The notes below the pieces were generated by a model that had not been told where the DNA came from, did no database searches, and was given only the letters and a program-made list of their open reading frames with translations. Below, piece after piece: positions 33,109 to 35,497 of a DNA stretch of 64,000 nucleotides. The stretch spans positions 128,993 through 192,992 of the forward strand of contig CAZINT010000002.1 of NCBI GenBank assembly GCA_964540825.1, in the 5' to 3' direction. Every line of letters starts with the position of its first letter. Within the stretch, counting starts at the first letter, position 1. Origin of the DNA: an uncultured Gammaproteobacteria bacterium. GTDB lineage: Bacteria; Patescibacteriota; Patescibacteriia; Magasanikbacterales; GWA2-37-8. The translations under genes were made by a program, and so were the position numbers.

Positions 33109-34362
33109 ATGAGTGAAAATCGGTCTTACGGACACATTACTGAATGTCAGATTTGTGGGAAAAACGATCTTGTTACGATACTTGAACTCGGTCATCAGCC
33201 GCCCGTTCACTCCCACTTGACCGCCGCTAAGCTGAATGATCCGGAAACAACGTACCCACTTAATTTTTGCCGCTGCACCTCCTGCGGCCTTTTGCAGCTC
33301 GATTATATTGGTGACCCGAAGATCATCTTCTCTTTAGAATATCCCTACCAAACCGGCATGACGAACATGCTTATTAGAAATTTTAGAGCGCTCGCTGATA
33401 GTGTTACCGCAAACTACAACCTTGGCTCTTCTGACTTAGTCGTCGACATTGGTTCAAACGACGGAACATTGCTTGCAGGCTTTAAAGAAAAAGGTACCAA
33501 GGTACTCGGTATTGAGCCAACTGATATTGCAAAAATAGCCAACGAAGCAAACATTGAAACTATCCAAGCATACTTCGATGAAGGTATCGCCCAAGAGGCA
33601 CGAAAAAAATATGGACCGGCCAAGATCATTACGTGCACTAATGCGTATGCCCACATTTATAATTTGTACGAAATAACTGCCGGTATTAAAACCATGCTCG
33701 CTGATGACGGGGTATTTATTTCTGAATCCCAGTACCTCATGGATATTATTGAAAATCTTGAGGTAGACACAATTTATCACGAACATTTACGTTTTTACGC
33801 GCTTAAACCTCTTATAACGCTGTTTGACAAAGCAGGCTTTACTTTAGTTGATGCCGAACGTATTACAGCGGCGGGTGGTTCAATTCGCGTTTATGCCATG
33901 AAAGGAAACCACCCTGTCAGCGATCGTGTTCGAGAACTTATCGCTAAAGAAGAAGCAGCTGGCTTATATGATGAAAAGACGCTTCAAAATTTTGCTCAGC
34001 GCGCTATTGCGGCCCGGCACAAATTACTTGCTCTTCTTCTGGACTGCAAAAAACAAGGGGCTAGAATTGTCGGCATTGGAGCCCCCGCACGCTCTAACAC
34101 ACTTTTGGGTTTTGCTAAAATTGACAAGACGATTCTCGAATACGCCTGTGAACGCGGTGGTTCTCCTAAGATCGGCCTGTACACCCCCGGTACGCATCTG
34201 CCTATCAAGGACGAGAAACAACTCTTTGAAGATCAACCTGAGTACGCCCTAATGCTTTCTTGGCATATTGGCGAAGAGCTTATGAAAAAACTTCGTGAAT
34301 TGGGCTATAAAGGAAAATTCATCATGCCGCTGCCAGAGCCTCGTATTGTTGATACTATTTAA
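33109..34362 (+). CDS. NDP-hexose C-methyltransferase (TylC3/NovU-like), with N-terminal Zn-binding domain and C-terminal C-methyltransferase domain
   Basis: The N-terminus reads CQICGKND ... CTSCGLLQL (Zn ribbon). The SAM motif I is VVDIGSNDGTLL. The length is 417 aa. Confidence 0.65.
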   Translation: MSENRSYGHITECQICGKNDLVTILELGHQPPVHSHLTAAKLNDPETTYPLNFCRCTSCGLLQLDYIGDPKIIFSLEYPYQTGMTNMLIRNFRALADSVTANYNLGSSDLVVDIGSNDGTLLAGFKEKGTKVLGIEPTDIAKIANEANIETIQAYFDEGIAQEARKKYGPAKIITCTNAYAHIYNLYEITAGIKTMLADDGVFISESQYLMDIIENLEVDTIYHEHLRFYALKPLITLFDKAGFTLVDAERITAAGGSIRVYAMKGNHPVSDRVRELIAKEEAAGLYDEKTLQNFAQRAIAARHKLLALLLDCKKQGARIVGIGAPARSNTLLGFAKIDKTILEYACERGGSPKIGLYTPGTHLPIKDEKQLFEDQPEYALMLSWHIGEELMKKLRELGYKGKFIMPLPEPRIVDTI

Positions 34363-34393
34363 TTGTTTATTTATTTTTAGGCATTCTACAACT

Positions 34394-35497
34394 ATGGCTA
34401 CTTCTAAAATCCCCTGGTGGATGCCTCAAGTTGGCACTCCGAATGAACGAAAATGGATTACGCACGCGCTTGATACTAATTTCATAAACGAGGGGCCATT
34501 AGCGACTGAATTTGAAAAACAAATCGCCGCCCGTGTCGGCACAAAATTTGCTATTGCCGTACCAAGCTGTACCACGGGTATTTTTTTAGCTCTGAAAGCT
34601 GCGGGAGTTAAACCAGGCGACGAGGTTATCGTTCCTGATATCACTTTTATTGCCACCGCTAACGCAGTTGACCTGTGCGGAGCAAAACCAATTTTGGTAG
34701 ATATTGACCCAAAAACTCTGACCATAAGTATTGAAGCGGCCAAAAAAGCCATCACCTCTAAAACAAAAGCTATTGCACCAGTACATGTTACGGGGCGCGC
34801 AGCTGACATGAAAGCCATTCTGGCGTTAGCTGCTGAACACGGACTAGTCGTGGTTGAAGATGCCGCTGAAGCGCTTATGTCACAGCATGAAGGACAGTAC
34901 CTCGGCACCTTCGGAAATGCGGGCTGTTTCTCTTTTTCACCGAATAAAACCATCACTACTGGTCAAGGTGGCATGATCGTTACTAACGACGAACAGCTGG
35001 CGACCAAAATTAGAGCATTAAAAAATCACGGCATACCAACTCGCGGCACGGGCGGAAACGATCTGCATGCTACGATCGGTTATAATTTCAGAATGACCGA
35101 TTTGCAGGCAGCGATTGGTCTTGGACAACTCGACTTTTTAGAAGAACGTGTTTCACGGATGAAAAGGCATTATGAACTCTACTCCAAAGAACTCGCTGGC
35201 GTGCCTGAGGTAACATTGTACCCGTGTAACATAGCTGGCGGAGCCGTTCCCCAATGGACTGACATTGTTCTTGAAAAGCGTGATGAACTCGACACATACC
35301 TTCATGAGCAAAATATCGACTGCCGCAAATACTGGTTTCCCATCCATCAACAAGTGGCGTATCAGCTCCCCGACGATGCTTTCCCGAACAGTACTCGTTT
35401 TTCACCCAGATCTCTCTGGCTCCCTTCTGCTTTCACACTAAAGGATGAAGAAATTATGGAGGTTTGCAGGGCTATTAAACAATTCTTCAGAGAATAA
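34394..35497 (+). CDS. DegT/DnrJ/EryC1/StrS-family PLP-dependent sugar aminotransferase
   Basis: The ATG at 34394 (MATSKIPWWMPQVG) is the likely start. The family features include the PLP Lys region SFSPNKTITTGQGGM. The track ORF starts upstream at 34295. Confidence 0.85.
   Translation: MATSKIPWWMPQVGTPNERKWITHALDTNFINEGPLATEFEKQIAARVGTKFAIAVPSCTTGIFLALKAAGVKPGDEVIVPDITFIATANAVDLCGAKPILVDIDPKTLTISIEAAKKAITSKTKAIAPVHVTGRAADMKAILALAAEHGLVVVEDAAEALMSQHEGQYLGTFGNAGCFSFSPNKTITTGQGGMIVTNDEQLATKIRALKNHGIPTRGTGGNDLHATIGYNFRMTDLQAAIGLGQLDFLEERVSRMKRHYELYSKELAGVPEVTLYPCNIAGGAVPQWTDIVLEKRDELDTYLHEQNIDCRKYWFPIHQQVAYQLPDDAFPNSTRFSPRSLWLPSAFTLKDEEIMEVCRAIKQFFRE

What the first reader, a model, noticed from the sequence alone, without database searches (positions are those of the whole stretch)
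33109..35497. C-methyltransferase plus aminotransferase pair implies a branched-chain (C-methyl) amino-deoxy sugar in the envelope glycan
A TylC3/NovU-type NDP-hexose C-methyltransferase (Zn-ribbon N-terminus plus C-MTase domain) is co-transcribed with a DegT-family sugar aminotransferase. A short nucleotidyltransferase and a 4,6-dehydratase pair lies nearby (44271–46001). C-methyl-branched amino sugars are known mainly from actinomycete antibiotics and a few S-layer and O-antigen glycans. Finding the pathway in this surface-glycan locus, driven by a perfect consensus promoter at 33046–33074, suggests an unusual sugar such as a 3-C-methyl-3- or 4-amino-6-deoxyhexose.
Basis: inference. Interest (0 to 1): 0.55.

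Follow-up and report, generated by a model that had tools for sequence, protein, structure and literature searches.

The report
Branched amino-sugar operon, probably aminopentose

Summary
33109-34362 encodes a complete TylC3/TcaB9-type NDP-sugar C-methyltransferase, with the zinc cysteines, SAM motif and Y-x-E-H catalytic set all present. 34394-35497 encodes a DegT-family aminotransferase; its real start is ATG 34394, not GTG 34295. The two genes form one unit between the only perfect sigma-70 promoter in the window and a strong terminator.

A C-methyl-branched amino sugar is the best reading, and 4-amino is more likely than 3-amino. However, comparison of 82 related loci does not link the pair to the LegB-type dehydratase and nucleotidyltransferase at 44271-46001. 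The conserved partners are the neighbouring genes: GT4 glycosyltransferase 31832-33028, Nudix 35612-36175, SDR 36282-37274 and the UGDH-like/methyltransferase fusion 37286-38926.

The SDR keeps the catalytic set of UDP-xylose synthase, including the arginine. It co-occurs with UGDH-family genes in 31 of 43 loci that have it, against 5 of 39 that lack it. In sister cassettes it is replaced by GDP-mannose 4,6-dehydratase.

The likeliest route is therefore NDP-hexuronate, then 4-keto-pentose, then 3-C-methylation, then 4-amination. This is the logic of the maduropeptin amino sugar and of Ara4N. No step has been tested biochemically. Interest is moderate.

The parts
33048..33076 (+). Sigma-70 consensus promoter (TTGACA, 17 nt spacer, TATAAT) of the two-gene operon
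   Evidence: 12 of 12 match. It is the only match in the window, with 0.02 expected by chance. L005 has a perfect site at the same relative position.
33109..34362 (+). NDP-sugar C-methyltransferase (TylC3/TcaB9/MtmC family), 417 aa
   Evidence: PF08421 + PF13489 + PF08484. PDB matches: MtmC 3.6e-77, KijD1 2.6e-67, TcaB9 3.6e-63. Zn cysteines C13/C16/C56/C59, the DIGSNDG motif, Y78, H182 and Y223-H224-E225-H226 are conserved.
34394..35497 (+). DegT-family PLP sugar aminotransferase, 367 aa, probably acting at C-4
   Evidence: PF01041 3.5e-111. Start fixed by orthologue alignment. Lys185 in FSFSPNK and Asp156 in EDAAEA. Nearest characterised relatives are C-4 aminotransferases: LegC-family model 283.6 bits, PseC 260, DesI 230, ArnB 221 and GDP-perosamine synthase 7.7e-66.
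35518..35553 (+). Intrinsic terminator of the operon
   Evidence: GC-rich hairpin followed by UUUU, -27.4 kcal/mol, z -5.6, 0 of 200 shuffles fold as well.
31832..33028 (-). GT4 glycosyltransferase, divergently transcribed; candidate transferase for the finished sugar
   Evidence: PF00534 1e-26. An orthologue lies near the methyltransferase in 12 of 21 loci that have the aminotransferase, against 1 of 61 that lack it.
36282..37274 (-). Extended SDR, inferred NDP-hexuronate 4-oxidase/decarboxylase that supplies the 4-keto sugar
   Evidence: Best PDB hit is human UDP-xylose synthase, 3.8e-30. S123/E125/Y159/K163/R293 align with UXS T118/E120/Y147/K151/R277 and are invariant in the family. Its closest paralogue in the window is the UXS-like gene 59336-60292. 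It sits next to the methyltransferase in 43 of 82 loci and is linked to UGDH-family genes. The fold search did not discriminate.
37286..38926 (-). Fusion of a UGDH-like dehydrogenase (NAD and central domains, no UDP-binding domain) with a class I methyltransferase
   Evidence: PF03721 + PF00984 + PF08241. The GGHCLPKD Cys motif and the Lys/Asn/Asp set are invariant. In the AF2 model, residues 291-384 are helices only. At least 120 clusters share this architecture and none has PF03720. Full-length UGDH occupies this slot in L004 and L082.
35612..36175 (-). Nudix hydrolase, a recurrent member of the cassette; role unknown
   Evidence: PF00293 4.9e-14. Nudix genes occur near the methyltransferase in 25 of 43 loci with the SDR, against 3 of 39 without it, and in L082 and L084. 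GC 0.626 against about 0.43 for its neighbours.
44271..44993 (-). Short sugar-1-phosphate nucleotidyltransferase in the same minus-strand gene string; possible activating enzyme of the pathway
   Evidence: PF00483 2.6e-40. No NCBIfam model reaches its cut-off. A 229-aa counterpart lies in the cassette of L083.
41539..44267 (-). GT2 polyprenyl-phosphate glycosyltransferase (PgfS/ArnC-like, 43329-44267) and a 593-aa membrane protein with GT-C-like topology (41539-43320); possibly linked to the cassette
   Evidence: The GT2 scores 239 bits on PgfS and 142 bits on ArnC, both below cut-off. The membrane protein has 8 or more hydrophobic segments followed by a soluble C-terminal domain. Homologues of the membrane protein accompany the cassette in L004, L005, L007, L010, L011, L083 and L084.

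Best explanation
The operon encodes the two middle steps of a pathway to a nucleotide-activated 4-amino-4-deoxy-3-C-methyl sugar that is built into a cell-surface glycan.

Proposed route:
1. An NDP-hexose is oxidised at C-6 to the uronic acid. Candidates are the UGDH-like domain of 37286-38926 and/or the canonical UGDH at 17476-18894.
2. The SDR 36282-37274 oxidises C-4 and decarboxylates, as ArnA and UDP-xylose synthase do, and releases an NDP-4-keto-pentose.
3. The C-methyltransferase uses SAM to methylate the enolisable C-3 next to the keto group.
4. The aminotransferase converts the 4-keto group to an amine.
5. The divergent GT4 (31832-33028) transfers the sugar.

In related genomes a formyltransferase or an acetyltransferase caps the amine. 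The window has neither.

Shown here: family membership, intact catalytic residues, the operon structure and the conserved gene neighbourhood.

Inferred: every substrate, the order of steps, C-3 and C-4 regiochemistry, the pentose rather than 6-deoxyhexose skeleton, the nucleotide (UDP, GDP or dTDP), and whether C-2 carries OH or NHAc.

I put the general claim (a C-methyl-branched amino sugar) at about 0.8 and the pentose route at about 0.5.
For: - Methyltransferase: three-domain architecture and end-to-end alignment to MtmC, KijD1 and TcaB9, with the Zn cysteines, SAM motif and Y/H/Y-x-E-H residues.
- Aminotransferase: the PLP lysine is present and the nearest characterised relatives are C-4 enzymes.
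- One transcription unit: unique perfect promoter, 31-nt gap between the genes, strong terminator.
- Neighbourhoods of 82 homologous loci: the SDR 36282-type lies within 6 kb of the methyltransferase in 43 loci. It co-occurs with a UGDH-family gene in 31 of those 43, against 5 of the other 39 (Fisher p = 5e-8, not corrected for phylogeny). This holds in CPR bacteria, Alphaproteobacteria, Planctomycetes and DPANN archaea.
- Within otherwise syntenic cassettes (Capsule_synth / X / GT4 / methyltransferase / aminotransferase / 593-aa membrane protein), X is either [UGDH-type + this SDR] or GMD. The two almost never occur together (2 loci with both, 41 with the SDR only, 9 with GMD only), as expected for alternative generators of the keto sugar.
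- L035 and L072 place a canonical UXS-like SDR plus UGDH directly beside the methyltransferase.
- The SDR keeps the equivalents of UXS T118/E120/Y147/K151/R277. At the arginine column the window's RmlB has Y, its LegB has L and GMD has L.
- The SDR's best PDB hit is hUXS1, and its closest paralogue in the window is the UXS-like 59336-60292.
- L005, L007 and L082 have no other SDR within 10 kb that could make a keto sugar.
- Loci without the aminotransferase carry a second SDR, an aldo-keto reductase or a Gfo/Idh/MocA oxidoreductase instead, which fits alternative fates of the 4-keto group.
- Published precedent for exactly this logic: maduropeptin MdpA1-A6, in which NDP-glucose goes to the glucuronate, a decarboxylase gives the 4-ulose, the C-methyltransferase MdpA4 and aminotransferase MdpA5 act in turn, and the product is TDP-4-amino-4-deoxy-3-methyl-ribose (PMC10951976).
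- A formyltransferase is fused to the methyltransferase in P0053 or lies adjacent in L005 and L082, which recalls ArnA.
Against: - No biochemical data exist for any protein of this clade.
- The SDR reaches no curated family threshold: RmlB model 135 bits, U4kpxs model 72.7 bits. The window's own UXS-like gene shows the same ranking, so this is weak evidence either way.
- The dehydrogenase beside the SDR in the window lacks the UDP-binding domain, so it may not act on an NDP-sugar at all.
- The aminotransferase's closest characterised relative is GDP-perosamine synthase, which acts on a 6-deoxyhexose.
- Aminotransferase and methyltransferase orthologues only 60-65% identical to the window's sit in GMD-fed cassettes, which presumably make the 6-deoxyhexose version.
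- The window holds two bona fide 4,6-dehydratases: RmlB 13550-14554 and the LegB-type gene 45003-46001. The latter lies in the same minus-strand gene string as the SDR.
- The co-occurrence statistics are not phylogenetically independent.
Confidence: 0.5

Rival explanations
1. The pair acts on an NDP-4-keto-6-deoxyhexose made by one of the window's 4,6-dehydratases (the LegB-type gene 45003-46001 with nucleotidyltransferase 44271-44993, or RmlB 13550-14554 with RmlA 6634-7719). The product would be a 4-amino-4,6-dideoxy-3-C-methylhexose, of the kansosamine/sibirosamine type.
For: Both dehydratases pass the curated NCBIfam cut-offs. The LegB-type gene lies in the same tightly packed minus-strand string as the SDR. 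The aminotransferase's best matches are the LegC-family model and GDP-perosamine synthase. Sister cassettes with GMD (L008, L010, L011, L084) most probably make just such a 6-deoxyhexose using 60-65% identical enzymes. Coxiella virenose is a proposed case of GMD plus a TylC3-type enzyme in LPS (PMC3539893).
Against: None of the 82 loci has an orthologue of the window's LegB-type gene near the pair; the best hits are 24-37% identical, meaning other SDRs. RmlB-type genes are not enriched near the aminotransferase (0 of 21 loci). This reading leaves the conserved SDR and UGDH-type neighbours without a role. The aminotransferase scores below the LegC cut-off (283.6 against 420).
Confidence: 0.27
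2. The aminotransferase is the LegC step of a legionaminic-acid-type nonulosonic acid pathway (LegB-type 45003-46001, NeuC-like 22457-23632, NeuB-like 26156-27160, CMP-transferase 23613-24311). The methyltransferase would modify the 4-keto intermediate, giving a C-methylated nonulosonic acid.
For: It is the only DegT aminotransferase in the 64 kb. The LegC-family model is its best NCBIfam hit. The LegB-type and NeuC-type genes pass their cut-offs. NeuB lies within 10 kb of the methyltransferase in 12 of 79 loci.
Against: Orthologous methyltransferase-aminotransferase-GT4 cassettes in L005, L007, L008, L009, L082 and L083 have no LegB-type or NeuB gene within 10 kb. No LegH-type acetyltransferase is present in the window. 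NeuC, a PfkB kinase, NeuB and the cytidylyltransferase can make a sialic-acid-type sugar without any aminotransferase. No C-methyl nonulosonic acid is known to me.
Confidence: 0.05
3. Same enzymes but different chemistry. Either methylation occurs at C-5 (NovU-like), which on a 4-keto-pentose would rebuild a 6-deoxyhexose skeleton, or the aminotransferase acts first at C-3 and the methyltransferase then methylates the amino-bearing carbon, as with TcaB9 and KijD1.
For: The family includes C-5 methyltransferases (from memory: NovU). KijD1 and TcaB9 methylate 3-amino-4-keto sugars and align at 1e-63 to 1e-67. C-3 aminotransferases (WbpE, QdtB, DesV) score only moderately lower than the C-4 enzymes.
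Against: The best structural relative is the C-3 methyltransferase MtmC, which acts on a 3-hydroxy-4-keto sugar. The window has no 2,3-dehydratase, 3,4-ketoisomerase or cupin gene to make a 3-keto substrate. The top characterised aminotransferase relatives all act at C-4.
Confidence: 0.1

Closest known systems
Maduropeptin amino-sugar pathway MdpA1-A6 (Actinomadura madurae), product TDP-4-amino-4-deoxy-3-methyl-ribose
   Same: Same proposed order of enzyme types: nucleotidyltransferase, NDP-glucose 6-dehydrogenase, decarboxylating SDR giving a pentos-4-ulose, TylC3-type C-methyltransferase, DegT aminotransferase, glycosyltransferase (PMC10951976). The window has a candidate for each.
   Different: That pathway belongs to a secondary-metabolite cluster in an actinomycete. 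Here the genes sit in a 60-kb surface-glycan locus, and the cassette is common in CPR, DPANN and proteobacterial MAGs. The SDR belongs to a separate, uncharacterised clade. The adjacent dehydrogenase lacks its UDP-binding domain and is fused to a methyltransferase. A Nudix hydrolase is a constant extra member. The transferase is a GT4. I could not compare sequences with the Mdp proteins.
Arn (L-Ara4N) lipid A modification pathway: Ugd, ArnA, ArnB, ArnC, ArnD, ArnT
   Same: UGDH, then a decarboxylating SDR giving a 4-keto-pentose, then a DegT 4-aminotransferase. N-formyltransferases are adjacent or fused in relatives (L005, L082, P0053). The same gene string holds an ArnC-like GT2 with two C-terminal membrane segments and GT-C-type membrane proteins.
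   Different: Arn has no C-methylation step. The window has no formyltransferase. None of the Arn equivalog models is reached: ArnB 221 bits against 631, ArnC 142 against 529, ArnA 44 against 777. The acceptor is unknown, and the organism may have no lipid A.
TylC3 / MtmC / TcaB9 / KijD1 NDP-hexose 3-C-methyltransferases
   Same: Same three-domain fold, zinc site, SAM motif and catalytic residues, with E-values down to 3.6e-77.
   Different: Those enzymes act on dTDP-2,6-dideoxy- or dTDP-2,3,6-trideoxy-4-keto-hexoses in antibiotic pathways. Here no 2,3-dehydratase is present and the likely substrate is a 4-keto-pentose, or in sister loci GDP-4-keto-6-deoxymannose.
Coxiella burnetii virenose route (GMD plus TylCIII-like C-3 methyltransferase on a GDP-sugar)
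   Same: A TylC3-type enzyme used for a cell-envelope glycan in a non-actinomycete. The GMD-fed sister cassettes (L008, L010, L011, L084) resemble it (PMC3539893).
   Different: Virenose is not aminated. The window has no GMD.
GDP-perosamine synthase (Per) and LegC-family aminotransferases
   Same: These are the closest characterised relatives of the aminotransferase, and they are C-4 aminotransferases acting on 4-keto sugars.
   Different: The score is below the LegC equivalog cut-off. The window's aminotransferase is partnered with a C-methyltransferase, not with GMD or a LegB-type gene, in its conserved neighbourhood.

Membership tests
TylC3/TcaB9-type NDP-sugar C-methyltransferase | Three-part architecture: N-terminal zinc-ribbon domain, class I SAM methyltransferase domain, C-terminal PF08484 domain | tested here: met
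   PF08421 residues 13-74, PF13489 residues 92-247 and PF08484 residues 255-409, all above the gathering scores.
TylC3/TcaB9-type NDP-sugar C-methyltransferase | Four zinc-ligating cysteines | tested here: met
   C13, C16, C56 and C59 are invariant in 18 relatives and align with the CxxC pairs of MtmC, KijD1 and TcaB9.
TylC3/TcaB9-type NDP-sugar C-methyltransferase | SAM-binding glycine-rich motif and active-site Tyr/His/Tyr-x-Glu-His (TcaB9 Y76, H181, Y222, E224, H225; numbering from memory) | tested here: met
   VVDIGSNDG, Y78, H182 and Y223-H224-E225-H226 align with the TcaB9 chain positions and are invariant in the clade.
TylC3/TcaB9-type NDP-sugar C-methyltransferase | SAM-dependent C-methylation next to a 4-keto group of a nucleotide sugar | not testable with these tools
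   Needs an enzyme assay. Only gene context supports it.
DegT/DnrJ/EryC1 sugar aminotransferase | Fold-type I PLP enzyme with the Schiff-base lysine (dehydratase relatives such as ColD have histidine instead) | tested here: met
   PF01041 372 bits. Lys185 in FSFSPNK and Asp156 are invariant in orthologues.
DegT/DnrJ/EryC1 sugar aminotransferase | Regiospecificity for C-4 | tested here: inconclusive
   All top NCBIfam models and the top characterised PDB hit are C-4 enzymes, but C-3 enzymes follow closely. No tree with characterised enzymes could be built.
LegC (legionaminic acid) aminotransferase | Score above the TIGR04181 cut-off | tested here: not met
   283.6 bits against a cut-off of 420.
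UDP-xylose synthase / ArnA-type NDP-hexuronate decarboxylase (for SDR 36282-37274) | Extended SDR with GxxGxxG, a catalytic Ser/Thr, Glu two residues later, YxxxK, and the Arg equivalent to hUXS1 R277 / ArnA R619 | tested here: met
   GGAGFIG; S123, E125, Y159, K163 and R293 align with hUXS1 and are invariant in 37 relatives. RmlB, the LegB-type gene and GMD lack the Arg in the same alignment. The roles of these residues are quoted from memory of the UXS and ArnA literature.
UDP-xylose synthase / ArnA-type NDP-hexuronate decarboxylase (for SDR 36282-37274) | Curated family score | tested here: not met
UDP-xylose synthase / ArnA-type NDP-hexuronate decarboxylase (for SDR 36282-37274) | Genomic linkage to an NDP-sugar 6-dehydrogenase | tested here: met
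   31 of 43 loci with the SDR have a UGDH-family gene within 6 kb of the methyltransferase, against 5 of 39 without it.
Madurosamine-type pathway (MdpA1-A6) | All six enzyme types are encoded together | tested here: inconclusive
   The methyltransferase, aminotransferase, SDR and a glycosyltransferase are adjacent. The dehydrogenase is present but lacks its UDP-binding domain; a canonical UGDH lies 18 kb away. The nucleotidyltransferase lies 8 kb away. No sequence comparison with the Mdp proteins was possible.
Arn (Ara4N) pathway | N-formyltransferase (ArnA N-terminal domain) | tested here: not met
   No homologue in the window (tblastn with the L005 formyltransferase). It is present in relatives L005, L082 and P0053.

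The most novel reading that the evidence does not exclude
A widespread, unstudied cassette in CPR bacteria, DPANN archaea and several proteobacterial lineages makes a C-methyl-branched 4-aminopentose, in effect a methylated relative of Ara4N, for the cell envelope. The feeder would be a new clade of decarboxylating SDR working with a UGDH-like dehydrogenase that has lost its nucleotide-binding domain and is fused to a methyltransferase. A Nudix hydrolase would be an obligatory partner. The sugar would be new to glycan chemistry outside one enediyne antibiotic. If the nucleotide is GDP, as the GMD-fed sister cassettes and the perosamine-synthase-like aminotransferase hint, the decarboxylase would act on a GDP-hexuronate, and no such enzyme is known.
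Probability: 0.4. Interest if true: 0.65.

Novelty: new variant of a known kind. Interest (0 to 1): 0.45.

Why it matters
Branched-chain amino sugars are textbook features of actinomycete antibiotics. This analysis suggests that the same chemistry is a common, unrecognised part of surface-glycan synthesis in uncultivated ultra-small bacteria and archaea and in some soil Proteobacteria.

It also gives a concrete, testable six-gene pathway. If confirmed, that would:
- add a new sugar to the known repertoire of prokaryotic envelopes;
- assign a function to a large SDR clade that NCBI currently names 'GDP-mannose 4,6-dehydratase';
- assign a function to a fusion protein currently named only 'methyltransferase domain-containing protein';
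- provide enzymes for making C-methyl amino sugars.

If only the ordinary reading holds, this is one more sugar-modification operon in a glycan locus.

Tried and rejected
2. The 'GPR' motif after the NxxG loop as a decarboxylase signature. Rejected: the window's LegB-type gene also has it and the alphaproteobacterial orthologues have GPD.
3. The NCBIfam ranking of the SDR (RmlB model above U4kpxs model) as evidence for a dehydratase. Rejected: the window's clearly UXS-like gene 59336-60292 gives the same ranking.
4. A Gfo/Idh/MocA (WbpB-like) 3-oxidase as the keto generator. It is common next to the methyltransferase elsewhere (36 loci), but the window has no homologue.
5. A cupin 3,4-ketoisomerase or epimerase step. 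It is present in GMD-type cassettes (cluster c42; FdtA in L084) but absent from the window.
6. Identifying the organism. The exact-match contigs come from unnamed assemblies. The nearest species-level genome (77% identity) is a MAG labelled 'uncultured Gammaproteobacteria', and the next are Saccharibacteria, Giovannonibacteria and Patescibacteria MAGs. I leave the taxon open.
7. Literature searches for 'madurosamine', PDB code 7B0M, TcaB9 residues, and C-methyltransferase together with CPR found nothing usable.
8. The first tblastn-based count of UGDH genes missed most of them; I replaced it with an HMM search.

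
Full report
**1. What is there**

The window is a dense polysaccharide and glycoconjugate locus: more than 15 glycosyltransferases, three PMT_2/GT-C proteins, a Wzy-like protein, an ABC exporter and several nucleotide-sugar pathways.

At the reported coordinates two genes lie on the + strand, between minus-strand genes on both sides.

- 33109-34362 encodes a 417-aa protein with the three Pfam domains of sugar C-methyltransferases: PF08421 zinc domain, PF13489, and PF08484 at 2.8e-44.
- It aligns end to end with the solved 3-C-methyltransferases MtmC (3.6e-77), KijD1 (2.6e-67) and TcaB9 (3.6e-63).
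- The second gene is a DegT/DnrJ/EryC1 aminotransferase (PF01041, 3.5e-111).
- The mechanical ORF starts at GTG 34295 and would overlap the first gene. Five orthologues all begin at the position of ATG 34394 (M-x-x-K-K-I-P-W-W), so the gene is 34394-35497, 367 aa, 31 nt after the methyltransferase stop.

TTGACA-17-TATAAT at 33048-33076 is the only perfect match in 64 kb, with 0.02 expected by chance, and the related locus L005 has one in the same position. Twenty nucleotides after the aminotransferase stop, a GC-rich hairpin followed by UUUU (35518-35553; -27.4 kcal/mol, z = -5.6) ends the unit. The terminator scan missed it because of its long loop. The pair is therefore a self-contained two-gene operon.

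**2.

It does neither.

- The four zinc cysteines (C13, C16, C56, C59), the SAM motif VVDIGSNDG, Y78, H182 and Y223-H224-E225-H226 are invariant among 18 relatives.
- They align with the TcaB9 residues I recall as Y76, H181, Y222, E224 and H225. The PDB chain numbering is offset by two from that numbering.
- The only solved proteins matching at better than 1e-60 are sugar 3-C-methyltransferases.
- The aminotransferase has the Schiff-base lysine (K185 in FSFSPNK) and the EDAAEA aspartate, so it is a transaminase and not a ColD/E1-type dehydratase.
- Its best family models are all C-4 aminotransferases: LegC family 283.6 bits (below the 420 cut-off), PseC 260, DesI 230, ArnB 221.
- Its best characterised solved relative is GDP-perosamine synthase (7.7e-66). 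ArnB follows at 4e-53, and the C-3 enzymes WbpE, DesV and QdtB at about 1e-48.

A 4-amino product is therefore more likely than a 3-amino one, but this is not settled.

**3. Where the keto sugar comes from**

A TylC3-type enzyme needs a keto group next to the carbon it methylates. That pair exists, and the dehydratase even passes the NCBIfam LegB cut-off (484 bits against 475).

To test the link I fetched 79 genomic loci encoding relatives of the methyltransferase from species-representative genomes, plus three metagenomic contigs with precomputed Pfam annotation. I then compared their gene content with the window.

No orthologue of the window's LegB-type gene accompanies the pair anywhere; the best hits are 24-37% identical, meaning other SDRs.

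What does recur in the closest relatives (59-77% identical methyltransferase; L003-L011, L082-L084) is a cassette made of:
- Capsule_synth protein;
- a keto-sugar generator;
- the GT4 glycosyltransferase (window 31832-33028);
- optionally a formyltransferase or acetyltransferase;
- the methyltransferase and the aminotransferase;
- a Nudix hydrolase;
- a roughly 590-aa membrane protein;
- a PgfS/ArnC-like GT2.

The generator slot is filled in one of two ways. One is the SDR found at window 36282-37274 (60-71% identical) together with a UGDH-family gene: window, L004, L005, L007, L082, L083. The other is GDP-mannose 4,6-dehydratase with no UGDH: L008, L010, L011, L084.

Over all 82 loci, counting genes within 6 kb of the methyltransferase:

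| Comparison | Result |
|---|---|
| Loci with the SDR type | 43 |
| Of those 43, also with a UGDH-family gene | 31 |
| Loci without the SDR that have a UGDH-family gene | 5 of 39 (Fisher p = 5e-8) |
| SDR and GMD together / SDR only / GMD only | 2 / 41 / 9 |
| GT4 in loci with the aminotransferase | 12 of 21 |
| GT4 in loci without the aminotransferase | 1 of 61 |

The counts are not corrected for shared ancestry. However, the UGDH-SDR-methyltransferase triad appears in CPR bacteria, Alphaproteobacteria, Planctomycetes, Acidobacteria-type MAGs and DPANN archaea. In L035 and L072 the SDR slot is taken by a canonical UXS-like SDR, again with UGDH.

Loci without an aminotransferase carry a second SDR (L006, L012, L066), an aldo-keto reductase (archaeal loci) or a Gfo/Idh/MocA oxidoreductase. 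This is what one would expect if the 4-keto group is either aminated or reduced.

**4. What the SDR is**

- It is a deep-branching extended SDR. Its best solved match is human UDP-xylose synthase at only 3.8e-30, and it reaches no curated family threshold.
- I aligned it with the window's other SDRs, a GMD and the hUXS1 segment recovered. It has S123, E125, Y159, K163 and R293 at the positions of hUXS1 T118, E120, Y147, K151 and R277.
- At the R277 column, the window's RmlB has Tyr, the LegB-type gene has Leu and GMD has Leu. RmlB also has the Asp-Glu pair, whereas position 124 of the family is variable.
- S122, S123, E125, Y159, K163, R292 and R293 are invariant in 37 relatives.
- The Glu argues against a simple epimerase. 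The Arg is the residue that, as I recall, is needed for decarboxylation in ArnA (R619) and UXS.
- Its closest paralogue in the window is 59336-60292 (31.6% identity, 140 bits; RmlB scores only 88 bits). That gene is itself a near-canonical UDP-xylose synthase ([24 protein letters not shown]).

Taken together, the residues, the paralogy and above all the linkage with 6-dehydrogenases make a decarboxylating 4-oxidase, which releases an NDP-4-keto-pentose, the best reading. I put it at roughly 0.55-0.6.

**5. The odd dehydrogenase**

The gene next to the SDR (37286-38926, 546 aa) has the NAD-binding and central domains of UGDH. The catalytic set is conserved: PEFLHE, K175, N179 and C232 in GGHCLPKD with D236. 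It has no C-terminal UDP-binding domain. In the AF2 model (pLDDT 88) residues 291-384 are helices only, followed by a class I methyltransferase domain with an intact SAM motif.

This architecture is conserved in at least 120 sequence clusters, none of which has PF03720. A stand-alone truncated form of about 320 aa sits next to the SDR in L006, L012 and L066. In L004, L082 and the proteobacterial and archaeal loci, the same slot holds a full-length nucleotide-sugar dehydrogenase. That enzyme passes TIGR03026 and is weakly closest to UDP-ManNAc dehydrogenases, so the starting hexose may be an N-acetylhexosamine.

How a UGDH without a nucleotide-binding domain recognises its substrate is unexplained, as is what its methyltransferase domain methylates. 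The pathway does not depend on it, because a canonical UGDH is present at 17476-18894.

**6. Mechanism proposed**

NDP-hexose is oxidised at C-6 to NDP-hexuronate. The SDR converts that to NDP-4-keto-pentose. The methyltransferase adds a methyl group at C-3, and the aminotransferase aminates C-4. The GT4 then transfers the sugar to a surface glycan.

This is step for step the published proposal for the maduropeptin amino sugar, in which MdpA1-A6 give TDP-4-amino-4-deoxy-3-methyl-ribose (PMC10951976). Apart from the methylation it is also the Arn route to Ara4N. The Arn resemblance is strengthened by formyltransferases placed upstream of the methyltransferase (L005, L082) or fused to it (P0053 in L083). 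It is strengthened further by the ArnC-like GT2 and the GT-C-like membrane proteins in the same gene string. The window itself has no formyl- or acetyltransferase of those types, so the amine may stay free or be modified by another enzyme.

All substrates, the regiochemistry and the nucleotide are inferred. The GMD-fed sister cassettes and the perosamine-synthase-like aminotransferase hint at GDP. The nucleotidyltransferases give no clear signal.

**7. Rivals**

This stays alive at about 0.27. Two bona fide 4,6-dehydratases are in the window, one of them in the same minus-strand string as the SDR. Enzymes 60-65% identical to the window's clearly work with GMD elsewhere.
- **The aminotransferase as LegC of a nonulosonic acid pathway.** This is unlikely, at about 0.05. 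Orthologous cassettes lack LegB-type and NeuB genes. The window's NeuC, PfkB kinase, NeuB and cytidylyltransferase set can work without an aminotransferase.
- **Other regiochemistry.** C-5 methylation, or a 3-amino-3-C-methyl product, cannot be excluded (about 0.1).

**8. Novelty and score**

Both focal proteins are new members of well-known families, and the pathway logic has precedents, so nothing here is categorically new.

What is not described, as far as the searchable literature goes, is:
- this cassette as a common feature of envelope-glycan loci in CPR, DPANN and proteobacterial genomes;
- its SDR clade, which NCBI names 'GDP-mannose 4,6-dehydratase';
- the truncated UGDH/methyltransferase fusion;
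- the predicted C-methyl aminopentose as a glycan component.

I rate it a new variant of a known kind, with interest 0.45.

Noticed in passing
window 35612-36175 (-); also 36215-36250: The Nudix gene has GC 0.626 (GC3 0.78) against about 0.43 for every neighbouring gene. Its 61%-identical orthologue in L005 is also GC-rich (0.575 against 0.47). A terminator-like hairpin (36227-36250) and a 10 of 12 promoter-like site (36243-36215) separate it from the SDR upstream. Nudix genes recur in the cassette across phyla. Their role in a nucleotide-sugar pathway is unexplained.
   Followed up: partly
window 37286-38926 (-): A UGDH-like dehydrogenase with an intact catalytic Cys/Lys/Asn/Asp set but no UDP-binding domain, fused to a class I methyltransferase. 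The architecture is conserved in at least 120 clusters, all annotated only as 'methyltransferase domain-containing protein'. The substrate and the methyl acceptor are unknown. One untested idea is oxidation to a uronate followed by methyl esterification.
   Followed up: partly
window 59336-60292 (-) and 17476-18894 (-): A near-canonical UDP-xylose synthase look-alike and a full-length UGDH are present (with a TviC-like uronate 4-epimerase at 16551-17522). The organism therefore makes UDP-GlcA independently of the cassette.
   Followed up: partly
window 22457-27160: A nonulosonic acid gene set: hydrolysing NeuC-type 2-epimerase (above cut-off), cytidylyltransferase, PfkB-family kinase, a 231-aa protein with no family hit, and a NeuB-like synthase. 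The kinase and the unknown protein suggest a phosphorylated-intermediate (Neu5Ac-9-P type) route rather than legionaminic acid. A pyruvyl transferase and a FemAB-like protein follow.
   Followed up: no
window 41539-43320 (-): A 593-aa protein with no Pfam hit has 8 or more membrane segments and then a soluble domain of about 170 aa, which is GT-C-like topology. Homologues about 25% identical accompany the cassette in at least 9 loci, usually beside a PgfS/ArnC-like GT2.
   Followed up: partly
window 39024-41506 (-): An MBOAT protein (DltB-like, 154.6 bits, below cut-off) is paired with a DUF1574-like protein that has one N-terminal membrane segment. This looks like an O-acylation or D-alanylation-type module inside the same gene string. 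MBOAT homologues also occur near the methyltransferase in L031, L044 and L063.
   Followed up: no
window 6634-7719, 12695-14554: Long-form RmlA, RmlB (both above cut-off) and an RmlD-like reductase are present, but no RmlC-type epimerase was seen in the 64 kb.
   Followed up: no
L054-L081 (Alphaproteobacteria MAGs, e.g. L060, L064, L079): A different conserved cassette surrounds the same SDR-methyltransferase pair: Gfo/Idh/MocA oxidoreductase, SDR, methyltransferase, a small methyltransferase, (UGDH), a DPM1-like GT2, Nudix, a KBL/ALAS-type PLP enzyme and a roughly 700-aa polytopic membrane protein. It has no aminotransferase. This may be a C-methyl pentose delivered through a polyprenyl phosphate.
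   Followed up: partly
P0053 (L083 10001-12049) and P0074: Natural fusions of the C-methyltransferase with an N-terminal formyltransferase domain (682 aa) and with a GT2 glycosyltransferase domain (686 aa).
   Followed up: partly
window 2809-2883 and 4769-4843 (+): Two tRNA-Pro genes (GGG and CGG anticodons) lie in a stretch of higher GC (0.51-0.53) at the left end of the window, outside the glycan locus.
   Followed up: no
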